Shown here: piece after piece, positions 36,984-56,969 of the stretch
Position numbering within the stretch: position 1 is the first letter of the stretch
How the letters are laid out: each line of letters starts with the position of its first letter
Source of the DNA: Promethearchaeota archaeon
GTDB taxonomy: Archaea; Asgardarchaeota; Lokiarchaeia; Sigyniarchaeales; SOKP01
Assembly: GCA_016840085.1 (NCBI GenBank)
Contig: JAEOTA010000058.1
Location: forward strand, 1-64,000
Reading direction: 5' to 3'
DNA: 64,000 nt
Notes under the pieces: generated by a model
Database searches by the model: none
What the model was told of the DNA's origin: nothing
Seen by the model: only the letters and a program-made list of their open reading frames with translations
Position numbers and translations under genes: made by a program

Positions 36984-39209
36984 GTGATTATAATGGAAGC
37001 TATAGAAAGTTTCTTTATGATATTTTTAAATGCACTGCCTATTATAGTTCTAATTATTCCCTTATTCTTCATATGGAAAAAAACTATAGGTAAATTGTAT
37101 TTTAGAGTAGCCCTAGGAATTGTAGTATTTTATTTGATTTATTGGGTCCTCCCAATAATTTTTCAGATAGGTGACACTCCTAATGAATTAGTGACATCAC
37201 CATCAGAAGAAGGGGATATTGTGTGTGGGATCGGCTATATTTTCGCACATTTTGGCTCACTTATAGCACAATTTTTTTCCTACCCAATAATAACATTACC
37301 ATTTATCTTTTTTATTGCTCCATTCATTTCTTTAATCTTCTTTTGGAACCGATTAAGGAAGGAAGAAGGAACATTAATTTCAAATTTAGAACAAGTAAGT
37401 TATGAAATAAAAGAAAGTCCATTAGAAAGAGCTAAAAATGGATTGATTAGAAACAACTGGTCCCGAGAAAAAGAAATTCTGAAATTAATGATAGTTCTGT
37501 TGCCTATTTCTCTCTACCTTTTACAAGTCATACTTGAAATTTCTAATTTACAAAACGAATCATTAACTACTGGTGAAACTGCTTTAGGATGGTTTTTAGA
37601 AATACTCTTTGTATATATAGCAATCTTCATTTTTAGCATTGAATTATTATTTTCAAGTCAAATTGCTTTAAAGGGTAGATTTTTTGGTGAACAAATTAGA
37701 GATCAAATCTACAAAAGTTTATATACAATTGGAGCACCAATGTCAATCTTTTCTATTATTCTATTTGCCATCCATTATGAAGCATCAATTGTAATAATTA
37801 TCTACTTTTTCGCTTATTTCATAATGGCATCTATAATATTTATTTTATTCCTTGATATCTTTGAACCTATCTCGATTTTAATCTTCATCAAGATGATTAA
37901 TTGGTGGAAAAATAGAAAGAAAAATAAAATTAATACCCAGAATTTTTATTATATATTAATCTTTGGTGCGTTGGGGCTGGTAGTTTACTTTATATCAAAT
38001 TTAATATTAACCAATTTTGTCTATACTCCACTTTTTGGAGGACCTGGTTCTTTAGAAGAAACAAGAATCTATACAGCAGGAGAATATACCACAAATAATC
38101 CAGAATTTTCTCATGTTTTACAATTTGATTTATTAATAATTTATGGAATTTTAATAACTGAAATAATCCCTGCCATCATTCTAACCATATTTTTGGTTTA
38201 TGGGTTAAAATTCTTGAAGAGTATAGGAGTAGGTATAATAGTTTATCTTCCTGTAGTAATAACACTTTCCATTCTTATTGTCATTGGTAGCGGGGATATT
38301 TATTGGTTAACAGGACAAACTAGTTATACTAGAGTTTTTGGATTTGATTTCTATACTTTAAGAACTGCGAGTTTACAAGCAAATCTACCAGATTTATTAA
38401 ACATATTAGCAACACCTTATTTATACACACGTTATATCTTTAACATTATACTATGGAGTTTGTTAATTTATTATTTTAGAAAAGAATTCAGAATCAAAAA
38501 TATCCCTATAGGTGAAGAACGTATCGAAAAAATAGTTTTTTCTAATGTTAGCGATTTTCTTTCTTATGATGCTTACACTGAAAATAAAGAAGACTATTTA
38601 GTTTCTAAGAAAGAAGATGTTGTTACAAAATACATAGATCAAGAACGGGAAGAAATAAAAACCATAATAAATAAAATTGAAAATGATAGATCATTAGAAG
38701 AAATTAAACCAGTTGATGATAATGAGAAAAAGCGATTCTATTTTACTTTAAGATATCTTTATCAAAATAACTTCATTACAATCTGGAAGCCAGAATTAAG
38801 CTATATTTATGAACGTGTTGAAAAACAAGGACTTTATATAATATACGATGATGGGCGAGGAGTTTATAATTATACTTTTCAAAAAGATGTTGATCAAGAT
38901 CCTGGTTTAGTGTCTGGAATGTTTTCTGCTATTACTTCATTTGTAAAAGAAATGACTAAGTCTACTGAAGCTTTGAAAAAAATAGACCATGGAGACATTA
39001 CAATTCTTTTAGAGTATGGTAATAAAATATTCGGAGCTCTCTTTATAAAAGGGACTCAAAGTTCAGAAGTACGATCACCCTTAAAAGAATTAGTTAGCAA
39101 ATTTGAAGCACAATATTCAGATATATTAAAAGACTGGACCGGATCACTCGATCACTTTAAAAAAGATGTTAACGATAAACTAGTAGAAGATGTTTTTAAA
39201 GAAGAATAA
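36984..39209 (+). CDS. Polytopic membrane protein with C-terminal wHTH-like and longin-like domains
   Basis: About 11-12 TM helices, then 'GLYIIYDDGR...DPGLVSGMFSAITSFVKEM...LKKIDHGDITILLEYG..IFGALF...FEAQY..ILKDWTG'. Confidence 0.75.
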   Translation: MIIMEAIESFFMIFLNALPIIVLIIPLFFIWKKTIGKLYFRVALGIVVFYLIYWVLPIIFQIGDTPNELVTSPSEEGDIVCGIGYIFAHFGSLIAQFFSYPIITLPFIFFIAPFISLIFFWNRLRKEEGTLISNLEQVSYEIKESPLERAKNGLIRNNWSREKEILKLMIVLLPISLYLLQVILEISNLQNESLTTGETALGWFLEILFVYIAIFIFSIELLFSSQIALKGRFFGEQIRDQIYKSLYTIGAPMSIFSIILFAIHYEASIVIIIYFFAYFIMASIIFILFLDIFEPISILIFIKMINWWKNRKKNKINTQNFYYILIFGALGLVVYFISNLILTNFVYTPLFGGPGSLEETRIYTAGEYTTNNPEFSHVLQFDLLIIYGILITEIIPAIILTIFLVYGLKFLKSIGVGIIVYLPVVITLSILIVIGSGDIYWLTGQTSYTRVFGFDFYTLRTASLQANLPDLLNILATPYLYTRYIFNIILWSLLIYYFRKEFRIKNIPIGEERIEKIVFSNVSDFLSYDAYTENKEDYLVSKKEDVVTKYIDQEREEIKTIINKIENDRSLEEIKPVDDNEKKRFYFTLRYLYQNNFITIWKPELSYIYERVEKQGLYIIYDDGRGVYNYTFQKDVDQDPGLVSGMFSAITSFVKEMTKSTEALKKIDHGDITILLEYGNKIFGALFIKGTQSSEVRSPLKELVSKFEAQYSDILKDWTGSLDHFKKDVNDKLVEDVFKEE

Positions 39210-39245: not shown

Positions 39246-39269
39246 ATTATTCAGGAATAGGAGCAACTG
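39246..39269. repeat. Direct repeat of the cyclase gene 3' end (att-like scar)
   Basis: ATTATTCAGGAATAGgaGCAACTG matches 46144-46167 ATTATTCAGGAATAGttGCAACTG at 22/24. Confidence 0.6.
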
Positions 39270-39326: not shown

Positions 39327-39794
39327 CTAATGCCTGAAAACAGATCTAATACGATCATCTATTTTTAATCTTAGATCTCCAAGAATCTCATCAATTTGAG
39401 GTATAAAATTTTTAAAGTATTTAGGTTTTTTCGAAAAAAAATCATTTATAGCATAGTGATTGAGAAACTCAGAATTTATTTCTTGTAAATGTTTTTTTAC
39501 AAAACTATGATTTGTACCCTTCTCAATAATGGCAAATGATAATAATGGCTCAGGTTCACTAGCTAGTTTACTTGGTAATTGAACCATTTTGTAATAACAG
39601 ACAATTTCAAAACTCGAGAGTGATATTACTTTAATTTTATCACCAAATACTTCGCTAATGAAATCTTTTAATCCAGCTAGAAATCTAGCACGTATGTTAG
39701 GATCTAATATCTTATCTGAAGATGAATAATACTTAATATCAACTAAATTTTTCAAACCGAGGTTAATTCCAACTTCTAAAACCGCCATACTCAA
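39327..39794 (-). CDS. Longin-like single-domain protein
   Basis: 'LDPNIRARFLAGLKDFISEVFGDKIKVISL' motif; resembles 15731..16195 in layout. Confidence 0.6.
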   Translation of the reverse strand: MSMAVLEVGINLGLKNLVDIKYYSSSDKILDPNIRARFLAGLKDFISEVFGDKIKVISLSSFEIVCYYKMVQLPSKLASEPEPLLSFAIIEKGTNHSFVKKHLQEINSEFLNHYAINDFFSKKPKYFKNFIPQIDEILGDLRLKIDDRIRSVFRH

Positions 39795-40044
39795 ACTTTT
39801 AAAATCTTTCCAATAATTTTAATATTAGACTTTTTAGTGGATCCATAAAAAATGCATATATAATTCATTTCTTCTGGATTTATGATAGGAATTGATAAAT
39901 CAAGAAATTTCAATTTATAACTTTATTATTTGATTAAGTTCTTAAAATTTTACGTAGACAATAGTTGAATAACTATTTATTTCAATCTAATGAATAGACT
40001 GATTTAAAAAATAAATAAAAAGGAAAAATTTAGGAAATATAATT

Positions 40045-42660
40045 TCAATCTTTCTTTATTTTTTTGCTTAAAAGGATTGATACAATGGATAGAATACCAA
40101 GTAGAATGAAAAGATTATATCCTGGAATTGCCCCATCTTTTTTTCGTTTTGGTTCTGGCTCTGGCTCTGGCTCAGGCTCAGGTTCAGTTTCTGGTTCAGG
40201 CTGGGGATCTGGACCATCATCCCAAATTGGAAACCTATCCTGACTTCCTGCTTTACCATCAATAATATATGGAGTATCTCCTATACCGTCATCATTAGCA
40301 TCGACACCACCATAATCATCCCAATAATTTCCTATCGTTCCATTATCCCAACGATTATTTGAACCATCATCATACGCATTGAGAGTATTATTAAAATAAT
40401 TAAGATAAATTGCATTCCAAGAACTACCCTCATCTAAATATATCCCTGAGTCTATATTATTATTAACGCTGTTTCCCGAAATGTCGTTAAATTCACTATT
40501 ATTTAAATATATCCCATAACCATTGTAGTTTACAATATTTTCCGAAATCTTTTTACAATCACTATAATATAAATATAAACCATATTCGTTATTATTTACT
40601 GTATTTCCTGAAACAATGTGATTATACCCCCTTAAATATATCCCATGTGTGTTGTAATTTGCGGTGTTTCCTAGAATGATATTATTATATCCCCCTAAAT
40701 TTATCCCACGTGTGTTGTAATTTACGGTGTTTCCTGTGATGGTATTCCAGTCACAATCATAATATAAATATATCCCCTGCGTGTTGTAATTTGCGATGTT
40801 TCCCGAAATGTTGTTATTATCAATATTTTCCCTTAAATATATCCCTACGTTAGTATTATTATTTACGGTGTTTCCCGTAATGGTATTCCACTCACAAGAA
40901 TACCGTAAATATATACCATATTCGTTATTATTTACGGTATTTCCTGAAATATTGTTATTATCACTGTAACCTAAATAAATACCTGAATATCTATTATTAT
41001 TTGCGGTATTTCCCGAAATGTTAGTATTAATACAATTATCTAAATGTATCCCTGAGTCGGTATTATTATTTACGGTGTTTCCCAAAATGATGGTATTATC
41101 TCCCCCTAAATATATACCATATTCGTTATTGTTCACTATATTTCCTGAAATGTTGTTAGTATTGCTATTTTCTAAATATATCCCTGAGTCTGTATTATTA
41201 TTTGCGGTATTTCCCAAAATGTTATTAGTATTACTATTATTTAAAAAAATCCCATTCCAATTGTAATTTGCGATATTTCCCGAAATGTCATTATTAATTC
41301 CCTCTAAATATATTCCATATGCGCTGTTATTATTAGCAATGTTTCCCGAAATGTTGTTATTATTACACCCAGAAAAGAAGTACATCCCATATTCGTTATT
41401 ATTTACTGAATTTCCCGAAATGTTGTTAATATTACTAGTACCTAAATATATCCCTGAGTCTGTATTATTATTTGCGGTATTTCCCGAAATGTCGTTATCA
41501 TTACACCCATAATGTAAGTATATCCCGGATTCTGTATTATTATTTGCGGTATTTCCCGAAATGGTGTTATTATCGCTATTACCTAAATATATCCCATTTT
41601 TGTTGTTATTTACGATATTTCCTGAAATGTTGGTAGTATGACTAGTACCTAAATATATCCCTGAGTCTATATTATTATTAACAGTGTTTCCCGAAACAAT
41701 GTTATGATCATTATTTCCCCCTAAATATATCCCACGTGTGTTGTAATTTGCGGTGTGTCCCGAAATGTCGTTATTATTATTATTTTGCATTAAATGTATC
41801 CCATTTTTGTTATTATTTACGATATTTCCTGAAATGTCGTTATTATTATTATTTTGAAATAAATATATCCCATAATCATTGTCATATGCGATGTTTCCCG
41901 AAATATTGTTATTATTACTATTCTCCCATAAAGTTATCCCATAACCATTGTCATATGCGATGTTTCCCGAAATGTTGTTAGAATCACTATGATATAAACA
42001 TATCCCACTCCCACTATTATTATTGGCAATATTCCCTGAAATTGTATTCGAATCGCAATTGTCCCGTAAATATATCCCCCTCCAGCTATAACTTACGTTA
42101 TTTCTTGAAATGATATTCCCATTGCAACTAACAAATAAGTGTATTCCAAAATTTATGTTATTACTAGCAATGTTTTCCGAAATGTTGTTATTATCACTGT
42201 TATATAAATATATCCCATTAGCAGAGTTTCCCGAACAATTGTTTCCTGTTAAAATTCCGTTAGTAGTGTTGTATAATCTTATTCCTTCTGCATAATTATA
42301 GACTGTGCAATTTCTAAGTGTAAAATATTCATTAGAATCTTCAATGCGTATACCAGAACCACTACCACCAATTATCGTAACATTTTCAATAATATAAACT
42401 CCATTATCAATATAACACCAATCAAAGTTTGAAGCAGTAAAAGACCAATTTTTATCAGGATCACTATCATCAATATGTATATTTGTTTCAATATAACCAC
42501 CCGTTGTTTTCGGACTTTTGAAATTAGTTTCATCTCGAAATTCTATAGGTCCCTCATTTTCCCCTTGAATATTAAAGATATTATAATTGTAGATACTCAA
42601 AAATACAAAAACTATCCCAAAAGTTATTATAATTATTTTTATTTTGCTTTTTTTTCTCAT
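40045..42660 (-). CDS. Right-handed beta-helix (NosD/CASH-like) surface protein, 28 repeats, (PE)n stalk, Loki-CTERM-type anchor
   Basis: Signal/TM N-term; repeats GI-x-L-x(3-6)-N-x-ISGN-x-x-N-x-N; 'GNYWDDY.GVDANDDGIGDTPY'; 'IPGYNLFILLG...KKIKK'. Confidence 0.9.
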   Translation of the reverse strand: MRKKSKIKIIIITFGIVFVFLSIYNYNIFNIQGENEGPIEFRDETNFKSPKTTGGYIETNIHIDDSDPDKNWSFTASNFDWCYIDNGVYIIENVTIIGGSGSGIRIEDSNEYFTLRNCTVYNYAEGIRLYNTTNGILTGNNCSGNSANGIYLYNSDNNNISENIASNNINFGIHLFVSCNGNIISRNNVSYSWRGIYLRDNCDSNTISGNIANNNSGSGICLYHSDSNNISGNIAYDNGYGITLWENSNNNNISGNIAYDNDYGIYLFQNNNNNDISGNIVNNNKNGIHLMQNNNNNDISGHTANYNTRGIYLGGNNDHNIVSGNTVNNNIDSGIYLGTSHTTNISGNIVNNNKNGIYLGNSDNNTISGNTANNNTESGIYLHYGCNDNDISGNTANNNTDSGIYLGTSNINNISGNSVNNNEYGMYFFSGCNNNNISGNIANNNSAYGIYLEGINNDISGNIANYNWNGIFLNNSNTNNILGNTANNNTDSGIYLENSNTNNISGNIVNNNEYGIYLGGDNTIILGNTVNNNTDSGIHLDNCINTNISGNTANNNRYSGIYLGYSDNNNISGNTVNNNEYGIYLRYSCEWNTITGNTVNNNTNVGIYLRENIDNNNISGNIANYNTQGIYLYYDCDWNTITGNTVNYNTRGINLGGYNNIILGNTANYNTHGIYLRGYNHIVSGNTVNNNEYGLYLYYSDCKKISENIVNYNGYGIYLNNSEFNDISGNSVNNNIDSGIYLDEGSSWNAIYLNYFNNTLNAYDDGSNNRWDNGTIGNYWDDYGGVDANDDGIGDTPYIIDGKAGSQDRFPIWDDGPDPQPEPETEPEPEPEPEPEPKRKKDGAIPGYNLFILLGILSIVSILLSKKIKKD

Positions 42661-42693
42661 TACATTTCACAGAAAAATTATCAGATTATGTAA

Positions 42694-42727
42694 AAAATTG
42701 ACAATTATGTATTTAACACTTTTGTAT
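42694..42727 (-). promoter_or_regulatory. Conserved 34-bp promoter/operator, copy 1
   Basis: Minus strand ATACAAAAGTGTTAAATACATAATTGTCAATTTT (BRE/TATA-like plus palindrome AATTG-N-CAATT), identical at three loci. Confidence 0.75.
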
Positions 42728-42996
42728 ATAATTTATTGCAATTTTCGCAATATCGGAAAACTACATTCAGAAGAGAATTAGAATTCTATTAAATATTCAG
42801 TTCGAAATAATTGGACAATTTTAAAAAATCTTAAAAATAAGAAAAGTATTATTTTTTTAATTATATAACTTCACTTGTTTAATTAACTAATTTTTAAGAA
42901 TTTACTTAGACAATAGTTGAATACCAATTTATTTTAATCTAATGAATAGACTGATTTAAAAAATAAATAAAAAGGAAAAATTTAGGAATTATAATT

Positions 42997-45816
42997 TCAA
43001 TCTTTTTTTATTTTTTTGCTTAAAAGGATTGATACAATGGATAGAGTACCAAGTAGAAGGAAAAGGTTATATCCTGGAATTCCACTAGGTTTTGACTTTG
43101 GCTCAGGTTCTGGTTCAGGCTCTGGCTCAGGTTCTGGTTCAGGCTCTGGCTCAGGTTCTGGTTCAGGCTGTGGATCTGGACCATCATCCCAAATTGGAAA
43201 ACTATCCTGACTTCCTGCCTTACCATCAATATAATATGGAGTATCTCCTATACCGTCATCATCAGCATCAACACCTGAATAATCCGACCAAAAATTCCCT
43301 ATCTTTCCATTATCCCAATGATTATCCGAACCATCATCATACGCATTGAGTGTATTATTAAAATAATTAAGATATATATTATTTTGAGTACAACTATCTG
43401 TTAAATATATCCCATTTAGGTTATTACTTACGTTATTACTTGAAATGGTGTTATAATGACTCCACTTTAAATATATCCCATATTCGTTATTATTTACAGT
43501 ATTTCCCGAAATGACGTTAGTATTACTTCCCTCTAAATATATCCCATAATAAGTGTTAATATTAACAGTGTTTCCCGAAATGTCGTTATTATTATTATCT
43601 TGCAATAAATATATCCCATTCCCATTGTAATTTGCGGTATTTCCTGAAATTCTGTTACTATCACTCCATTTTAAATATATTCCATAACCATTGTAGTTTG
43701 CGATGTTTCCTGAAATGGTGTTACCATCACTCTCCTGCAAATATATAGCAGATATGCTGTTAATATTTACAGTATTTCCCGAAATGTCGTTATAATAACC
43801 ATTATCTAAATATATCCCATTCCCATTGTAATTTGCGATATTTCCCAAAATGTCGTTATAATCACTATTATCTAAATATATCCCATTCCCATTGTAATTT
43901 GCAGTGTTTCCCGAAATGTTGTTAGTATTACTATAATATAAATATATCCCTGAGTTTGTATTATTATTTGCGGTGTTTCCCGAAATGTCGTTAATAAGAC
44001 TATTATCTAAATATATCCCTGAGTCTGTATTATTATTCACGGTGTTTCCTGAAATGTCGTTATAATCACTATTATTTAAATATATCCCATATTCGTTATT
44101 ATTTACAATATTTCCCGAAATGTCGTTAGTATTACTATCTTCTAAATTTATCCCATATTCGTTGTTATTTACAGTGTTTCCCGAAATGTTGTTAATAAAT
44201 CCCCCTAAACGTATCCCATAACCATTGTAATTTGCAATATTTCCCAAAATGTCGTTATGACCACCAGAATATAAATTTATCCCTAAGTCTGCATTATTAT
44301 TCACGGTGTTTTGTGAAATATTATTATAATTTCCATCTAAAAATATCCCGTTCCCGCTATTATTGTTTGCATTATTTCCCGCGATGATGTTATTATTTCC
44401 CCCTAAATCTAGCCCATTCCCGCTATTATTGTTTGCATTATTTCCCGCGATGATATCATTACTTCCCCCCTCTAAAAGTATTCCATTCCCGCTATTATTG
44501 TTTGCATTATTTCCCGAAATGTTGTTATTATTTCCATATAAATCTAGCCCATTCCCGCTATTATTGTTTGCAATATTTTCCGAGATGATGTTATTATCTC
44601 CCCCTAAATATAATCCATTTCCGCTATTATCGTTTGCATTATTTCCTGAAACGTTGTTATTATTTCCATATAAATATATGCCAGATATGCCATTACTATT
44701 AGCAGTGTTGTCCGAAATGTTGTTATTATTTCCCCCTAAATATATCCCTGAGTTTGTATTATTATTTGCGGTGTTTCCCGAGATGATGTTATTATCTCCC
44801 CCTAAATATATCCCGAAGACAGTATTATTGTTTGCGGTGTTTCCTGAAATGCTGTTATTATTTCCCCCTAAATATATCCCTGAATCTGTATTATTATTTG
44901 CGGTGTTTCCCGAAATGCTGTTATTATTTCCCCCTAAATTTATCCCGAAGAGAGAATTATTGTTTGCGGTGTTTCCCGAAATGTTGTTATTATTACACCC
45001 ACTTACTAAATACATCCCCATCCTGTTATTACTTACATTATTTCTTGAAATAGTATTATCATCACTCCCCATTAAATTTATTCCAAAATCGTCGTTATCA
45101 TTAGCAGTGTTTCTCGAAATGTTGTTAGAATTACACCCACTGTCTAAATATATCCCCGTCAAGCTATTACTTACGTTATTTCTTGAAATGGTATTATTAT
45201 CACTCCCCTCTAAATATATCCCACGTGTGTTGTAATTTATGGTGTTTCCCGAAATGTTGTTATTATTATTTCCCGATAACCATATCCCAATACCAGTGTT
45301 ATTATTAACAATGTTTCCCGAAATAGTGTTATTATAACAGTTGCTATCTAACCATATACCTCTGTCATTGCTGTTTGAGCAATTATTTTTGGTAAAAATT
45401 CCGTTAGTAGTGTTGTACAATCTTATTCCATTGACAGCATTATACACTGTGCAATTTCTGATTATAAAATACTCATTTTTGGAATTTTCTATACAAATTC
45501 CGCTTCCCCATTGCCCACCGATTTCGTCAATAGTCACATTTTCAATAATATAAACCCCATTATCAATATAACACCAATCATAGGTTGAAGCAGTATAAGA
45601 CCAATTTATAGCAGGATTACTATCATCAATATATATATATTGTCTAGTATAGCCATCCGTCATTTTAGGACTTTTGAAATTAGTATCATCTCGAAATTCT
45701 ATAGGGCCATCATTTTCACCTTGAACATTAAAGAGATTATAATTATAGATACTCAGAAATGCGAAAATTATCCCTAAAGTTATTATAATTATTGTTTTTT
45801 TTGCTTTAGATTTCAT
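42997..45816 (-). CDS. Right-handed beta-helix surface protein, 31 repeats, (PE)n stalk, Loki-CTERM-type anchor
   Basis: Same caps and anchor as 40045..42660; different repeat array. Confidence 0.9.
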   Translation of the reverse strand: MKSKAKKTIIIITLGIIFAFLSIYNYNLFNVQGENDGPIEFRDDTNFKSPKMTDGYTRQYIYIDDSNPAINWSYTASTYDWCYIDNGVYIIENVTIDEIGGQWGSGICIENSKNEYFIIRNCTVYNAVNGIRLYNTTNGIFTKNNCSNSNDRGIWLDSNCYNNTISGNIVNNNTGIGIWLSGNNNNNISGNTINYNTRGIYLEGSDNNTISRNNVSNSLTGIYLDSGCNSNNISRNTANDNDDFGINLMGSDDNTISRNNVSNNRMGMYLVSGCNNNNISGNTANNNSLFGINLGGNNNSISGNTANNNTDSGIYLGGNNNSISGNTANNNTVFGIYLGGDNNIISGNTANNNTNSGIYLGGNNNNISDNTANSNGISGIYLYGNNNNVSGNNANDNSGNGLYLGGDNNIISENIANNNSGNGLDLYGNNNNISGNNANNNSGNGILLEGGSNDIIAGNNANNNSGNGLDLGGNNNIIAGNNANNNSGNGIFLDGNYNNISQNTVNNNADLGINLYSGGHNDILGNIANYNGYGIRLGGFINNISGNTVNNNEYGINLEDSNTNDISGNIVNNNEYGIYLNNSDYNDISGNTVNNNTDSGIYLDNSLINDISGNTANNNTNSGIYLYYSNTNNISGNTANYNGNGIYLDNSDYNDILGNIANYNGNGIYLDNGYYNDISGNTVNINSISAIYLQESDGNTISGNIANYNGYGIYLKWSDSNRISGNTANYNGNGIYLLQDNNNNDISGNTVNINTYYGIYLEGSNTNVISGNTVNNNEYGIYLKWSHYNTISSNNVSNNLNGIYLTDSCTQNNIYLNYFNNTLNAYDDGSDNHWDNGKIGNFWSDYSGVDADDDGIGDTPYYIDGKAGSQDSFPIWDDGPDPQPEPEPEPEPEPEPEPEPEPEPEPKSKPSGIPGYNLFLLLGTLSIVSILLSKKIKKD
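43100..43169. repeat. 24-bp tandem repeat (about 3 copies) encoding the Pro-Glu stalk
   Basis: GGCTCAGGTTCTGGTTCAGGCTCT at 43100, 43124 and (partial) 43148. Confidence 0.9.
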
Positions 45817-45849
45817 ATTATTCTCATAAAAATTAATTGGATTAAGAAT

Positions 45850-45883
45850 AAAATTGACAATTATGTATTTAACACTTTTGTAT
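45850..45883 (-). promoter_or_regulatory. Conserved 34-bp promoter/operator, copy 2
   Basis: Identical to 42694-42727. Confidence 0.75.
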
Positions 45884-46144
45884 GCAAATCATCAGCAATT
45901 TTCCCAATATCGGGAAACTACATTCAGAAGAGAATTAGATTTCTATTAATAATTAAGTTCGAAGTACTTGGACAATTTTATAAAATCTTAAAAATTAAAA
46001 AAATATTATTTTTTCAATTATATAACTTCACTTGCTCAGTTACTTTCACGCAATAGAACTATTATAACTCCCGCTGCTCCTAATAAAAGAAAATATCAGA
46101 GTGTTTTAAATTGGATGAAAGCATATTTTTTTTTAATTTTCTTA

Positions 46145-46930
46145 TTATTCAGGAATAGTTGCAACTGCGCGAACCCACCCTGCGCTAGCTCGAGCAATTT
46201 TTATCGGGAAACAATAAATTGTAGCACCAACAGGTGGAACCTTTTCTAAATTTGTTAATTTTTCCATTTGAAAATAACCTAACTCAATTCCAGCGAAGTG
46301 ACCTTCCCAAATAATAGAAGGATCCTGGCTTTGCTCCCATTTCTGAGCAGTAATAGAAAAAGGAGCATCCCAAGACCATGAATCTGTTCCTACAATATGA
46401 ACTCCTTGTCTGATTATATGCAAAGTTGCCTTTTTACCTACTCCTATTCCATGATGTACAAACTCATTAGTTCCATAATAGTTGGAAGCATTAGTATGAA
46501 CACATAAGATATCCTTTTCTTTTAGACTATAATTAATCTCATTTAACTTTTTATCAATATCTTCTGGTAATAATACATATCCATCCTCATAATCAGTGCA
46601 ATCCAGAACAATAAGAGGAGCAATACACCACTCTAAGGGAATCTCATCGATTGTCATTGCTTTCCTTTGTCCAATTTCTTTATCTTGAATAGAGGCAAAG
46701 TGCCATGGGGAGTCCATATGAGTTCCATTATGAGTGCTTAGTGTAATCCTTTCTGTTGCCCAACCTGTACCAAGAGGTAAATGTTTTTCTGGTATTAGAT
46801 TAAATATAGCGCCCATTTGTTCAGCACCTTTCTTATGATCATTGTAGTCTATATGTAGCTCTGTTCTTTCTGGATCAAAAATTAATTCCTCAGGATTAAT
46901 TAATGGAATAGACAAATCAATAAATTTCAT
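46145..46930 (-). CDS. Cyclase family metal-dependent hydrolase (kynurenine formamidase-like)
   Basis: 'DLSIP', 'STHNGTHMDSPWH', 'VGTD', 'EKL.NL', 'P.KI..AS.GW.RAVA'. Confidence 0.92.
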   Translation of the reverse strand: MKFIDLSIPLINPEELIFDPERTELHIDYNDHKKGAEQMGAIFNLIPEKHLPLGTGWATERITLSTHNGTHMDSPWHFASIQDKEIGQRKAMTIDEIPLEWCIAPLIVLDCTDYEDGYVLLPEDIDKKLNEINYSLKEKDILCVHTNASNYYGTNEFVHHGIGVGKKATLHIIRQGVHIVGTDSWSWDAPFSITAQKWEQSQDPSIIWEGHFAGIELGYFQMEKLTNLEKVPPVGATIYCFPIKIARASAGWVRAVATIPE

Positions 46931-48152: not shown

Positions 48153-49127
48153 ATGAAATTAAATACAAAAATAATGATATTCATTTTATTAGCTTTAGGA
48201 ATCGTTTTTGTATTATCACCAATAATTAGCAACAATCTCAATTATGATGCAAGAAATAATGATAAAAGTTCGGAATATAGCAAAGATATTAATTCAGTTA
48301 ATAAAATATTGAAATTCTCAAAAATATCTGGAAAAATTCATATTGATGGCGATTGGTCTGCTGCTAAGGCTGGGGGTATATGTTCAGGTTCAGGCACTTC
48401 CTCCGATCCTTATATCCTAAAAGATTTCATAATAGATGCAGATGGTCCGGGAAGTTGCATACTAATTGAAAATTCTGATGTGTATTTTAAGATTGAAAAT
48501 TGTACCCTCTTCAACAGTGGAACTTCTTATATCTTAGATGGAGGAATTACATTAAATAATGTAACAAATGGAGTAGTAATTAATAACACTTGTTATTCTA
48601 ATTTCAGGGGAATTAATGTAAGAAAAAGTTATAATAACATTATTTCGGGAAATATCGCAAATAATAACATTGAGGATGGGATATATTTATGGTATAGTAA
48701 TATTAACACCGTTTCAGGAAACACGGCAAATAACAACGGTGATAGTGGAATAATGTTGCACGATAATAGTAATAATAATATAATTTCGGGAAATACCGCA
48801 AATAACAATTATGAAAATGGAATATACTTATGGATCTGTAATAACAACACCATTTCAGGAAATACCGCAAATAATAATACCGAAGCTGGAATAAATTTAA
48901 GAAGTAGTGATAATAACAAAATTTCAGAAAATATCTTAATGGGAAATGATAAGTGCATCCTAGAAGAATATTCCCAAGGAAACAAATTTAAAGATAATAA
49001 GTCCTGCAATTATGGAGAAGGTGATGAAATAATTCCAGGATATAATCTATTCTTTCTACTTGGTATTCTATCCTTTGTAGCAATCCTTATAAGTAGAAAA
49101 ATAAAGAAATCTTCAAATTTAAATTAA
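48153..49127 (+). CDS. Beta-helix (NosD-like) surface protein, 6 repeats, Loki-CTERM-type anchor
   Basis: 'IHIDG.W...GSGT.SDPYI', ISGNTANNN repeats, 'IPGYNLFFLLG...RKIKK'. Confidence 0.88.
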   Translation: MKLNTKIMIFILLALGIVFVLSPIISNNLNYDARNNDKSSEYSKDINSVNKILKFSKISGKIHIDGDWSAAKAGGICSGSGTSSDPYILKDFIIDADGPGSCILIENSDVYFKIENCTLFNSGTSYILDGGITLNNVTNGVVINNTCYSNFRGINVRKSYNNIISGNIANNNIEDGIYLWYSNINTVSGNTANNNGDSGIMLHDNSNNNIISGNTANNNYENGIYLWICNNNTISGNTANNNTEAGINLRSSDNNKISENILMGNDKCILEEYSQGNKFKDNKSCNYGEGDEIIPGYNLFFLLGILSFVAILISRKIKKSSNLN

Positions 49128-55732: not shown

Positions 55733-56902
55733 TCAAGATTTCTTTATTTTTTTGCTTATAAGGATTGCTACAAAGGATAGAACACCAAGTAGAATGAATA
55801 CATTATATCCTGGAATTATACCATCTCCATTATCATCTCCTTCTTCAGGAAGAAGTGGACACTTCATTAGTGGAAAATTATCCTGAGAACCTTCTGTACT
55901 TGTAACATTATATGGCGTATCCCCTATACCGTCATCATTAGCATCTACACCATTGTAATCATCCCAATAATTACCAATAGTTCCATTGTCCCATTGGTTA
56001 TCTATTCCACTATCCCTAGCATTTAATCCATTCCCGATAAAACAGTTTTTGTTTACAAGGTTTTCATCGCTCCTATCTGATAGGGATATCCCAGTTTCAC
56101 TATTATCGTTTGTGATATTTTCCGAGAGGGTATTATTATTGCAATAATCATCTAAATGTATCCCTTCATTAGAATTCTTATGTGCGGTGTTTCTCGAGAG
56201 AGTGTTGAAATTACATCTTAACCATAATAATATTCCACGATCTCTATTGTCATTCACGATATTTCCTGAGATGGTATTATAACTACAGCGATCTTTAAAT
56301 GTAATTCCTACATTATTATTTTTTAAAGTATTTCCTATAATAATATTAACATCACAATTTGAGTCAAGTCTAATCCCCGCCCAGACATTGTCGTTTACTC
56401 TACAATTCGAAATTGTATTATTATCACAATCATTATAGAGAAATATTCCATGCCTGTTGTTATTTGAACAGGTATTATTTATCAAAATTCCGTAATTTGT
56501 GTATTCCAATCGGATCCCTGCGTCATTTGTCTCATTACCCGCATTGTAAACAGAGCAATTTCTGATTATAAAATCCTCATTTTTGGAATTTTGTATAAAA
56601 ATCCCACTTCCCGTCGGTGAACCATTGGCGTCAATTATAACGTTTTCAATAACATAAAATCCATTGACAAAAGTACACCATGGTTTTATAAGAGTTTCTG
56701 TCCAATTACCATCAATATGTATAAAAGATTCGATATAAGTTACAGATAATTTCAGGCTTTTTAAATTAGTCTCATATTGAATTTCTATGGTTCCATCATT
56801 ATTCCCTTGATCGTCAATGATATTAAAATTGCTAATGGTCGATACTGCGAAAATCATCCCGAAAACTATTATAGTCATTTTTATTTTGTTTTTATTTCTC
56901 AT
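55733..56902 (-). CDS. Beta-helix (NosD-like) surface protein, 7 repeats, Loki-CTERM-type anchor
   Basis: Same N-cap ('YVIENV.ID'), C-cap ('WDNGTIGNYWDDY.GVDANDDGIGDTPY') and 'IPGYNVFILLG' tail. Confidence 0.9.
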   Translation of the reverse strand: MRNKNKIKMTIIVFGMIFAVSTISNFNIIDDQGNNDGTIEIQYETNLKSLKLSVTYIESFIHIDGNWTETLIKPWCTFVNGFYVIENVIIDANGSPTGSGIFIQNSKNEDFIIRNCSVYNAGNETNDAGIRLEYTNYGILINNTCSNNNRHGIFLYNDCDNNTISNCRVNDNVWAGIRLDSNCDVNIIIGNTLKNNNVGITFKDRCSYNTISGNIVNDNRDRGILLWLRCNFNTLSRNTAHKNSNEGIHLDDYCNNNTLSENITNDNSETGISLSDRSDENLVNKNCFIGNGLNARDSGIDNQWDNGTIGNYWDDYNGVDANDDGIGDTPYNVTSTEGSQDNFPLMKCPLLPEEGDDNGDGIIPGYNVFILLGVLSFVAILISKKIKKS

Positions 56903-56935: not shown

Positions 56936-56969
56936 AAAATTGACAATTATGTATTTAACACTTTTGTAT
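56936..56969 (-). promoter_or_regulatory. Conserved 34-bp promoter/operator, copy 3
   Basis: Identical to copies 1 and 2, at the same 33-nt distance from the start codon. Confidence 0.75.

What the first reader, a model, noticed from the sequence alone, without database searches (positions are those of the whole stretch)
39942..46034. Constant-cap / shuffled-repeat / stalk / anchor surface proteins: a variable-receptor-like beta-helix system
Seen: two tandem paralogs share closely similar non-coding flanks, N-caps, C-caps, (PE)n stalks and IPGY anchors, so the duplication is recent. Their arrays of about 22-aa beta-helix coils (28 versus 31 by my count) are not collinear. The same junction modules (NNNTDSGIYL, NNNEYGIYL, ANYNGNGIYL/GYGIYL, NYNTRGI) recur in different orders and are joined to hypervariable segments after 'GIxL'. 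Two more paralogs carry 6 and 7 coils. Inference: the coil array is being recombined much faster than its flanks diverge, giving combinatorial diversity on one face of a solenoid. The layout parallels lamprey VLRs (cap - variable repeats - cap - Pro-rich stalk - anchor) by analogy only. Possible roles are partner adhesion or virus evasion.
Basis: partly seen in the sequence, partly recalled or inferred. Interest (0 to 1): 0.82.

Follow-up and report, generated by a model that had tools for sequence, protein, structure and literature searches.

The report
Tandem Lokiarchaeal beta-helix surface rods
Two neighbouring genes of a Lokiarchaeon (Asgard archaeon) encode long, membrane-tethered beta-helix rods of a very large known surface-protein family; their ends are alike and their repeat arrays are scrambled, which ordinary repeat duplication and gene conversion explain without any dedicated variable-receptor machinery.

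Summary
Genes A (40045-42660, 871 aa) and B (42997-45816, 939 aa), both on the minus strand, share flanks (87-90% nt), N-cap (85%), and C-cap, PE stalk and anchor (90%). Their 27 and 30 regular 22-24-aa coils show no collinearity beyond chance.

Both are NosD-like/PbH1 right-handed beta-helix proteins. The 'IPGY anchor' is the curated Loki-CTERM sorting signal, and the genome encodes archaeosortase H. Every genome searched in the genus carries 13-77 matches to protein A.

The VLR-like 'fast combinatorial shuffling' reading is only partly supported:
- No shared multi-coil block is more similar (at most 82.5% nt, dS 0.31-0.67) than the flanks.
- Like coils occur in runs (SSSS, GGGG, RRR, TETETE), the mark of local tandem amplification.
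- Exposed turn columns evolve near neutrally (dN/dS about 0.9-1.0).
- No donor cassettes, reverse transcriptase or recombinase were found.
- Identity steps sharply at both cap/array borders, and the ends look homogenised. B's promoter and N-cap are shared with another species at dS 0.086, against a genome background of 1.4.

Within-population variation could not be tested. The scan saw the same pattern before on other DNA (e1-2767495, a DPANN archaeon). Verdict: a new member of a known kind, of moderate interest as a candidate Asgard surface structure.

The parts
40045..42660 (-). Gene A, 871 aa: NosD-like/PbH1 beta-helix surface protein with Loki-CTERM
   Evidence: ORF. Pfam Beta_helix E 3e-106, NosD E 2.4e-101. 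TIGR03804 E 9.8e-103; Loki-CTERM 27.9 bits against a cut-off of 19.9.
42997..45816 (-). Gene B, 939 aa: tandem paralog of A
   Evidence: ORF. Pfam NosD E 5.5e-101. Loki-CTERM 26.3 bits.
42586..42660 (-). A: N-terminal hydrophobic helix (signal peptide or signal anchor), aa 1-25. The equivalent in B is 45742-45816.
   Evidence: AF2 helix 4-25, followed by a disordered linker 22-53. Coordinates.
42253..42501 (-). A: N-cap, aa 54-136 (two irregular cap coils). The equivalent in B is 45397-45657.
   Evidence: Collinear with B at 85% nt; dS 0.44, dN/dS 0.34. Identity falls from 0.87 to 0.56 at the first regular coil.
40411..42252 (-). A: array of 27 regular 21-24-aa coils, aa 137-750
   Evidence: Coil split and alignment. 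Three strands per coil in the AF2 model. TRF periods of 66/69, 132-141 and 198-207 nt.
43378..45396 (-). B: array of 30 regular coils, aa 141-813. It includes the B-specific run B12-B16 and the two-coil duplicate B07-08/B09-10.
   Evidence: Clade B12-B16 has SH-aLRT 98. B07-08 versus B09-10: 92% nt, dS 0.11.
40213..40410 (-). A: NosD-type C-cap (GNYWDDY...DDGIGDTPY), aa 751-816. The equivalent in B is 43180-43377.
   Evidence: Covered by the end of the Pfam NosD profile. Matches PDB 2kzw_A, E 2.2e-8. 90% nt to B, dS 0.22.
40129..40212 (-). A: (PE)n spacer, aa 817-844. The equivalent in B is 43081-43179, five PE units longer.
   Evidence: Sequence. pLDDT below 50 in the model. TRF 24-nt period in B.
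40048..40128 (-). A: Loki-CTERM sorting signal (IPGYN, TM helix, KKIKKD), aa 845-871. The equivalent in B is 43000-43080.
   Evidence: NF033507 over its cut-off. The coding DNA is conserved, synonymous sites included, among six genes of the genome.
42694..42727 (-). 34-nt promoter-region box, identical upstream of A, B (45850-45883) and paralog D (56936-56969)
   Evidence: Exact matches. Alignment of the upstream regions, also with the G001 ortholog.
42661..42996 (-). B-A intergenic region: the 3' flank shared with A's downstream (39908-40044) runs into the 5' flank shared with B's upstream (45817 to about 46042). A motif of about 20 nt, AAGTGAAGTTATATAATT, marks the unit borders.
   Evidence: Local alignments at 87% and 90%. 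Sliding identity stays at 0.84 or above up to about +110 nt past the stop.
55733..56902 (-). Paralog D, 389 aa: same N-cap type, C-cap, Loki-CTERM and promoter box, with about 5-7 coils
   Evidence: Pfam and NCBIfam. Sequence. N-cap 53% aa identical to A and B.
48153..49127 (+). Paralog C, 324 aa: a different N-cap, no NosD C-cap, Loki-CTERM, about 6 coils
   Evidence: Pfam and NCBIfam. Sequence.

Best explanation
A and B are tandemly duplicated members of the large Lokiarchaeal family of NosD-like (PbH1/CASH) right-handed beta-helix surface proteins.

Architecture:
- Each protein is exported through an N-terminal hydrophobic helix.
- It folds into a straight three-sheet solenoid of about 29 (A) or 32 (B) coils. 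At the usual 4.8 Å per coil this is roughly 14-15 nm (inferred).
- The solenoid ends in the ordinary NosD-type C-cap.
- A disordered (PE)n spacer tethers it to a Loki-CTERM signal, which archaeosortase H presumably cleaves and lipid-anchors (inferred).

Evolution:
- The whole unit (promoter, gene and 3' flank) was duplicated at a neutral divergence of about 0.2-0.5.
- Since then the arrays have been restructured by ordinary repeat dynamics: unequal crossing-over or slippage that duplicates and deletes blocks of 1, 2 or 3 coils. Exposed turn residues drift near neutrally.
- The promoter box, caps and anchor are kept alike by structural and sorting constraints and by gene conversion or exchange, even between species.

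Most likely role: a member of the non-crystalline surface coat that binds glycans, partner cells or particles (inferred).

This is not a programmed diversity generator.
For: Family and anchor:
- Pfam Beta_helix and NosD at E about 1e-100; TIGR03804; Loki-CTERM over its cut-off.
- 35 Loki-CTERM ORFs in the genome and an archaeosortase H gene (NF041736, 323 bits against a cut-off of 200).
- AF2 model with pLDDT 89.6, a continuous helix over residues 56-810, and a disordered stalk.
- The best structural superposition is NosD 7osf_A (TM by target 0.66, rmsd 3.4 Å).
- 13-77 matches to protein A in each of 30 related genomes. More than 1,600 database relatives, named only 'NosD domain-containing / parallel beta-helix repeat'.

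Whole-unit duplication:
- Both flanks are shared, and the same motif of about 20 nt sits at all three unit borders.
- A and B coils are closer to each other (mean 0.66, best-match mean 0.81) than to paralog D (0.56, 0.65) or C (0.60, 0.70).

Local amplification:
- Runs SSSS, GG..GG, RRR and TETETE.
- TRF periods of one, two and three coils.
- A B-only clade B12-B16, and B07-08/B09-10 at dS 0.11.
- Intragenic blocks about 80% identical at shifts of 22, 46 and 159 aa.

No fast shuffling:
- The best A/B blocks are at most 82.5% nt identical, with dS 0.31-0.67.
- Variable columns have dN/dS 0.9-1.0 and conserved columns 0.27.
- No cassettes above 74% nt identity elsewhere in the genome.

Homogenised or exchanged ends:
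- Sharp identity steps at both cap/array borders.
- The 3' module has dS 0.12-0.22, against 0.44 for the N-cap.
- Anchor DNA is conserved at synonymous sites in six genes.
- B's N-cap against G001 has dS 0.086, while the cyclase ortholog has dS 1.42. Homology ends at the promoter box.
Against: - Complete loss of collinearity across about 600 aa while the flanks remain 87-90% identical needs many rearrangement events. That is a high turnover rate, and selection for variation is not excluded.
- Coils next to the caps, which should be positional orthologs, are only 67-70% nt identical. This fits replacement of the array, or homogenised ends, better than simple internal duplication.
- dN/dS estimates rest on short, non-independent coil pairs chosen for their similarity.
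- No ortholog with a complete array was found, so the turnover rate was never measured directly.
- Surface location, sortase processing and ligand binding are inferred from family membership, not shown.
- In Promethearchaeum syntrophicum no beta-helix proteins were reported among the glycoproteins (PMC11284389), so expression level is unknown.
Confidence: 0.68

Rival explanations
1. The locus is a variable-receptor-like system in which coil modules are actively and frequently recombined, within and between the paralogs and anchored on constant DNA boxes. Under selection for partner adhesion or virus evasion, this produces combinatorial diversity on one face of the solenoid.
For: - Arrays are non-collinear between 85-90% identical ends.
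- Coil types are intermixed between the paralogs on the tree.
- Variability is concentrated on the two turns that flank sheet PB3, next to a conserved Tyr ladder.
- Exact repeats of 25-47 nt inside the arrays could seed homologous recombination.
- N-cap dN/dS is about 1.3 between B and its G001 relative.
- The family is greatly expanded in organisms that live in syntrophic contact (PMC9834061).
Against: - No shared block is more similar than the flanks (at most 82.5% nt; dS 0.31-0.67).
- Only one intragenic duplicate is young (dS 0.11).
- Runs of like coils point to local amplification, not reassortment.
- dN/dS is at most about 1 at the variable columns.
- There are no donor cassettes, and no recombinase, DGR reverse transcriptase or invertible promoter among the neighbours scanned.
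Confidence: 0.12
2. Module swapping. The arrays of A and B are not descendants of one duplicated array. Whole middles, or whole ends, were replaced by homologous recombination with other family members or alleles from related species, with crossovers in the conserved promoter box, caps and anchor. The constant ends are the mobile or homogenised part.
For: - B's promoter box and N-cap are 90% nt identical (dS 0.086) to a gene of another species whose genome background is 75-76% nt (dS 1.42). Homology stops abruptly about 57 nt upstream.
- Identity steps sharply at both cap/array borders.
- Cap-adjacent coils are only 67-70% identical.
- The 34-nt box is identical in D, whose N-cap is only 53% aa identical.
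- Anchor DNA is homogenised across six genes.
- An earlier follow-up on a DPANN locus reached the same reading (e1-2767495, not independent evidence).
Against: - A and B coils are clearly closer to each other than to any other paralog in the genome.
- No candidate donor array exists in this genome or in the public data searched.
- The same border motif at all three unit junctions fits one whole-unit duplication.
- The G001 contig is 2.9 kb long and comes from a MAG with 9% contamination.
Confidence: 0.17
3. Assembly artefact: the arrays are chimeras produced by short-read assembly of a repetitive region.
For: - The source is a 89-contig MAG with 7.6% contamination.
- The related G001 contig breaks exactly where the array begins.
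Against: - No 55-mer is repeated anywhere in 39795-46144, and the longest exact repeat within the arrays is 47 nt.
- Both ORFs are open over 2.6-2.8 kb with regular 21-24-aa coils.
- Protein A, the one modelled, folds into an uninterrupted high-confidence helix.
Confidence: 0.03

Closest known systems
NosD-like / PbH1 (CASH) right-handed parallel beta-helix repeat proteins of archaea (Pfam PF05048, PF13229; TIGR03804)
   Same: - Strong profile matches over the whole array and the C-cap.
- Three-strand coils with Asn ladders.
- The best structural superposition is NosD 7osf_A.
- The same generic annotation is carried by more than 1,600 Promethearchaeota relatives.
   Different: - Much longer and more regular than NosD: about 29-32 coils, against an NosD chain of about 400 aa.
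- Scores below the NosD subfamily cut-off (172 against 300 bits).
- No nosZ found in the genome and no adjacent nos genes.
- Carries a (PE)n stalk and a Loki-CTERM anchor.
Loki-CTERM sorting domain (NF033507) with archaeosortase H (NF041736); by analogy PGF-CTERM with ArtA of Haloferax
   Same: - A C-terminal tripartite signal (PGY motif, TM helix, basic tail) preceded by a low-complexity acidic/Pro spacer.
- Scores over the cut-off in A, B, C and D.
- The cognate-type sortase gene is present in the genome.
   Different: - Processing and lipid attachment have not been shown for any Loki-CTERM protein, as far as the searched literature goes (one search found no paper using the term).
- That ArtH is the cognate enzyme rests on my recollection of the NCBIfam curation.
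Viral and cellular 'nosD-like' proteins of sediment communities, proposed to act in adhesion (PMC13452462)
   Same: NosD-like beta-helix proteins without nos gene context, found in anoxic sediment organisms that live attached or in consortia, with an adhesion or sugar-binding role proposed on the same indirect grounds.
   Different: - Those are mostly short viral ORFs.
- None is described with a cap, array, stalk and Loki-CTERM layout, or as tandem paralogs.
Lamprey variable lymphocyte receptors (VLRs)
   Same: The order of modules: N-cap, variable number of solenoid repeats, C-cap, Pro/Thr-rich stalk, membrane anchor. Variable residues lie on one side of the solenoid.
   Different: - Different fold (LRR horseshoe against beta-helix).
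- VLR diversity is made somatically by copying from hundreds of flanking cassettes with cytidine deaminases. Here there are no cassettes, no such enzyme nearby, and no evidence of variation within a lineage.
Tandem beta-helix surface paralogs with homogenised ends in a DPANN archaeon (earlier scan finding e1-2767495)
   Same: Neighbouring archaeal beta-helix surface genes with an archaeosortase-type tail. Their promoters, export ends and anchor ends are kept alike while the middles differ.
   Different: - A different phylum and sorting signal (PEF-CTERM-like).
- That note is an AI report and I did not re-examine its DNA.

Membership tests
Right-handed parallel beta-helix repeat (PbH1/CASH; PF13229, TIGR03804) | Repeated profile matches over the curated cut-off | tested here: met
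   PF13229: 352 and 284 bits against a cut-off of 25.9. TIGR03804: 336 and 328 bits against a cut-off of 19.45, in 20 and 16 stretches.
Right-handed parallel beta-helix repeat (PbH1/CASH; PF13229, TIGR03804) | Three-strand-per-coil solenoid fold | tested here: met
   AF2 pLDDT 95-98 over residues 56-810, with strands at coil columns 23-2, 5-7 and 12-17. Foldseek hits are all beta-helix proteins.
Canonical NosD (nitrous oxide reductase maturation; TIGR04247) | Score over the subfamily cut-off of 300 bits | tested here: not met
   171.8 bits (A) and 139.8 bits (B).
Canonical NosD (nitrous oxide reductase maturation; TIGR04247) | nos gene context (nosZ, nosF, nosY) | tested here: not met
   - The neighbours are a cyclase, an amidohydrolase, HpaB, ABC ATPases of other kinds and a histone deacetylase.
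- No NosZ (TIGR04246) match in a genome that is 98.8% complete.
- nosF and nosY were not searched separately.
Canonical NosD (nitrous oxide reductase maturation; TIGR04247) | His-Met-Met copper-site motif (as described in PMC13452462) | not tested
   No residue-level alignment to 7osf was made. A has only 3 Met and B has 5.
Loki-CTERM sorting-signal proteins (NF033507) | C-terminal domain match over the cut-off, at the extreme C-terminus | tested here: met
   27.9 and 26.3 bits by hmmscan and 34.4 and 32.8 bits in the genome search, against a cut-off of 19.9, on the last 26 residues. The model also rings in methanogens that have PGF-CTERM (control).
Loki-CTERM sorting-signal proteins (NF033507) | Cognate archaeosortase in the same genome | tested here: met
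   G000:C24 ORF of 293 aa: NF041736 archaeosortase H, 323 bits against a cut-off of 200.
Loki-CTERM sorting-signal proteins (NF033507) | Cleavage and lipid anchoring of the tail | not testable with these tools
   Needs mass spectrometry of the mature protein.
Programmed surface-variation systems (VLR, pilE/pilS, vlsE, DGR types) | Silent donor cassettes or a template repeat with near-identical segments | tested here: not met
   The best match to the arrays anywhere else in the genome is 74% nt over 310 nt.
Programmed surface-variation systems (VLR, pilE/pilS, vlsE, DGR types) | A dedicated enzyme nearby (reverse transcriptase, recombinase, deaminase) | tested here: not met
   None among the 17 neighbouring ORFs scanned against Pfam between 31.8 and 56.9 kb. 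Several ORFs had no Pfam match.
Programmed surface-variation systems (VLR, pilE/pilS, vlsE, DGR types) | Different alleles within one population or lineage | not testable with these tools
The exact protein B is not on record elsewhere.

The most novel reading that the evidence does not exclude
These Loki-CTERM beta-helix rods are the 'complex surface proteins' seen by cryo-ET on Lokiarchaea, which lack an S-layer. On this reading the family is a recombination-driven surface repertoire. The conserved promoter box, caps and anchor would serve as crossover points through which arrays and ends are exchanged among paralogs and even between species. Rod length and the PB3-face surface would then vary between strains, for partner recognition or virus avoidance.
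Probability: 0.12. Interest if true: 0.7.

Novelty: new member of a known kind. Interest (0 to 1): 0.36.

Why it matters
Cultured Lokiarchaea have no ordered S-layer. They display 'numerous surface proteins' that are thought to mediate the cell-cell contacts relevant to models of eukaryogenesis (PMC9834061), and the genes behind those structures are not identified.

This family is abundant, with dozens of matches per genome. Its members are predicted to form rigid rods of about 14-15 nm on flexible tethers, which makes them concrete candidates.

The locus also gives a clean, quantified example of how such genes evolve: constant, homogenised ends and a repeat array that turns over by local amplification. 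It carries a hint of exchange of the promoter and N-cap module between species.

It does not reveal a new diversification mechanism.

Tried and rejected
- Search for an ortholog with a complete array, the decisive comparison. None was found in 30 relatives, 54 genomes of the genus, JGI metagenomes (best N-cap 63%) or the 5.8-billion-protein set. The exact protein B is not on record. The only close relative, G001:C57, ends at the first coil, and no other G001 contig continues it.
- Canonical NosD function: rejected (below the cut-off, no nos context, no NosZ).
- PF09721 exosortase search: no hit. The sortase was then found with TIGR04178 and NF041736.
- 'Integration scar' idea from another note (a duplicated cyclase 3' end): only a 22/24-nt match. 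The 155-aa ORF at 39327-39794 is not cyclase-like. Not pursued.
- Heavy N-glycosylation ladder: there are 28 and 34 N-x-S/T sequons, about one per coil. However, the Asn and Ser positions are also structural, and the only Asgard glycoproteome found few glycoproteins (PMC11284389). Left as speculation.
- Two rows (overlapping intragenic segments showing 100% identity) are alignment artefacts and were ignored.
- Literature: no paper uses the term 'Loki-CTERM', and none describes this family in Asgard archaea.


Full report
**What is there**

The stretch holds two tandem minus-strand genes: A (40045-42660, 871 aa) and B (42997-45816, 939 aa).
- Both match Pfam Beta_helix and NosD at E about 1e-100. 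Both match the TIGR03804 parallel beta-helix repeat in 16-20 stretches.
- Their last 26 residues (IPGYN, hydrophobic helix, KKIKKD) match NF033507, the curated Loki-CTERM sorting domain, above its cut-off.
- The window has about 30% G+C. It lies in a 4.68-Mb, 89-contig genome whose relatives are annotated as Promethearchaeota or Lokiarchaeia.
- The genome has about 35 Loki-CTERM ORFs and one archaeosortase H gene (NF041736, 323 bits).
- There is no NosZ match, and the NosD subfamily score is below its cut-off. These are therefore NosD-like surface proteins, not nitrous-oxide reductase maturation factors.

**Check of the observation**

Similarity of flanks and ends:
- The upstream flanks are 87% identical over 220 nt and the downstream flanks 90% over 137 nt. 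The same motif of about 20 nt sits at all three unit borders.
- The N-cap is 85% nt identical. The C-cap, stalk and anchor together are 90%.

The arrays:
- I split the arrays into 27 (A) and 30 (B) regular coils of 21-24 aa, plus two cap coils each.
- A 14-mer dot plot has diagonals only in the caps.
- The best collinear chain of coil pairs is no better than with permuted coil order (p = 0.89; interior coils 0.99).
- Two short paralogs, C and D, exist in the window.

An assembly chimera is unlikely, because no 55-mer is repeated in the region.

**Structure**

An AF2 model of A, built with a 22-sequence alignment, has pLDDT 89.6. It shows an N-terminal helix (4-25), a disordered linker, an uninterrupted three-sheet helix from 56 to about 810, a disordered PE stalk and a C-terminal helix.
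- Strands fall on coil columns 23-2 (PB1), 5-7 (PB2) and 12-17 (PB3).
- Column entropy is low at I1, N4, N7, N9, G13, I14 and L16. It is high at columns 10-12 (turn T2) and 17-22 (turn T3), the two turns that flank PB3. PB3 carries a mostly conserved Tyr at column 15.
- The best superposition is NosD (7osf_A: TM by target 0.66, rmsd 3.4 Å). Alginate epimerases, alginate lyases and phage tailspikes follow.
- By sequence, PDB gives NosD (E 9e-12) and 2kzw_A for the C-cap.

**Is the array being shuffled quickly?**

Several results argue against it.
- The best A/B blocks inside the arrays are 80-82.5% identical over 250-290 nt, at shifted positions. That is below the flanks. Their dS (0.31-0.67) equals or exceeds that of the N-cap (0.44) and the C-cap (0.22), and dN/dS is 0.26-0.54.
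- Only one intragenic event is young: the two-coil duplicate B07-08/B09-10, at 92% identity and dS 0.11.
- Like coils stand in runs. TRF finds periods of one, two and three coils. B12-B16 form a B-only clade. Intragenic blocks of about 80% identity lie at shifts of 22, 46 and 159 aa. These are the marks of local tandem amplification by unequal crossing-over or slippage.
- On a coil tree the gene label needs 16 changes, against 19.3 for shuffled labels (p about 0.06-0.1). The coils are nearly fully intermixed. This is expected if the coil types predate the duplication, and it does not by itself show continuing exchange.
- Across 43 nearest-neighbour coil pairs, variable columns have dN/dS 0.90 (T3 1.04, T2 0.67) and conserved columns 0.27. 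That means relaxed constraint on exposed turns, not clear positive selection.
- Nothing elsewhere in the genome matches the arrays above 74% nt, so there are no donor cassettes.
- The neighbours are ordinary metabolic and transport genes.

**The ends**

Identity drops sharply at both cap/array borders.
- On the N side it falls from 0.87 to 0.56 at A residue 137.
- On the C side it rises from 0.64-0.73 in the last coils to 0.82-1.0 from residue 748. It stays high through the C-cap, stalk, anchor and about 110 nt of 3' flank.
- Cap-adjacent coils, which are positional orthologs, are only 67-70% identical.

Other signs that the ends are kept alike:
- A 34-nt box upstream of the start codon is identical in A, B and D, although D's N-cap is only 53% aa identical.
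- The Loki-CTERM coding DNA is conserved, synonymous sites included, in six genes of the genome, and each is followed by a T-rich tract.

The most telling result concerns another species of the genus, G001. It has a gene whose promoter box and N-cap are 90% nt identical to B (dS 0.086, dN 0.109). The cyclase ortholog of the two genomes is 76% identical (dS 1.42), and the gene upstream on that G001 contig is 73-75% identical to its G000 homologs. Homology to B stops about 57 nt upstream of the start codon. The constant ends are therefore partly the product of gene conversion or exchange, apparently even across species. The caveat is that this rests on a 2.9-kb contig of a MAG with 9% contamination, and the contig ends at the first coil.

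**Are the arrays related at all?**

Yes. A and B coils are closer to each other (mean 0.66; best-match mean 0.81) than to D (0.56; 0.65) or C (0.60; 0.70). About half of the coil columns evolve near neutrally, so a best-match identity of about 0.8 is compatible with the age of the N-cap.

The most economical history has three steps:
1. One whole-unit tandem duplication at a neutral divergence of roughly 0.2-0.5.
2. Array restructuring by local duplication and deletion.
3. Later homogenisation, especially of the 3' module.

Replacement of whole arrays by recombination at the conserved ends remains a live alternative.

**Function (inferred)**

The proteins are predicted to be rigid rods of about 29-32 coils on flexible PE tethers, anchored through Loki-CTERM and archaeosortase H. 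The family is very large:
- 13-77 matches to protein A in each of 30 related genomes.
- More than 1,600 database relatives.
- 80 metagenome loci with the same N-cap type, at 36-63% identity.

Lokiarchaeum ossiferum lacks an ordered S-layer and shows complex surface proteins protruding from a single membrane (PMC9834061). NosD-like proteins without the copper-site motif have been proposed to act in adhesion in sediment consortia (PMC13452462). A role as glycan-, partner- or particle-binding members of the surface coat is the best guess. It is not shown.

**Comparison and verdict**

The genes are members of the PbH1/NosD-like beta-helix family and of the Loki-CTERM protein set. They are not canonical NosD, and they fail the tested criteria for a programmed variation system. 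The VLR likeness is one of module order only.

The same pattern, homogenised ends with diverged middles in tandem archaeal beta-helix surface genes, was noted earlier in this scan on a DPANN genome (e1-2767495). The NosD-type C-cap was found to be an ordinary end-cap in a Thermoplasmatota case (e1-967930).

Novelty: a new member of a known kind. Interest is moderate, mainly as a candidate Asgard surface structure and for the hint of module exchange between species.

Noticed in passing
window 42694-42727, 45850-45883, 56936-56969 (minus strand): A 34-nt box (ATACAAAAGTGTTAAATACATAATTGTCAATTTT) is identical upstream of three beta-helix genes (A, B, D). It ends about 33 nt before each start codon. 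It is also present in the ortholog of another species, G001, and looks like a shared promoter or operator that implies co-regulation.
   Followed up: partly
L031 (G001:C57) 1444-1968 versus window 45337-45873: Another species of the genus shares B's promoter box and N-cap at 90% nt (dS 0.086), while housekeeping orthologs are about 76% identical (dS 1.42). Homology stops abruptly about 57 nt upstream. This suggests recent exchange of this module between species, or a misbinned contig.
   Followed up: partly
window 39246-39269 and 46144-46167: A 24-nt direct repeat (22/24 identical) brackets the block holding the 155-aa ORF, A and B. One copy overlaps the stop of the cyclase gene. This is too short to call an integration scar, and the 155-aa ORF (39327-39794) has no Pfam match and is not cyclase-like.
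   Followed up: partly
window 40048-40128, 43000-43080, 49032-49109, 55739-55816; L150 (G000:C18), L151 (G000:C51): The roughly 80 nt that encode the Loki-CTERM tail are conserved at the DNA level, synonymous sites included, among six otherwise different genes. Each is followed by a T-rich tract. This suggests concerted evolution, or a constraint at the nucleotide level on the anchor-coding segment.
   Followed up: partly
L133/L144 (G001:C431) versus window 42997-46930: In G001 the cyclase gene is also next to a beta-helix family gene (907-aa frame, about 50% aa identical in the N-cap), but in the opposite relative orientation. The position next to the cyclase is therefore a conserved site for family members whose content turns over.
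   Followed up: no
G000:C24:3239-7219 (L134, L135): Three tandem paralogs of a different Loki-CTERM protein family, homologous to the 428-aa gene upstream of the G001 B-like gene and 68-75% nt identical to it. This is another tandemly expanded surface-protein set in the same genome.
   Followed up: no
window 36984-39209 (+) and 39327-39794 (-): A 741-aa ORF and a 155-aa ORF directly downstream of gene A have no Pfam or NCBIfam match at E of 0.001 or lower.
   Followed up: no
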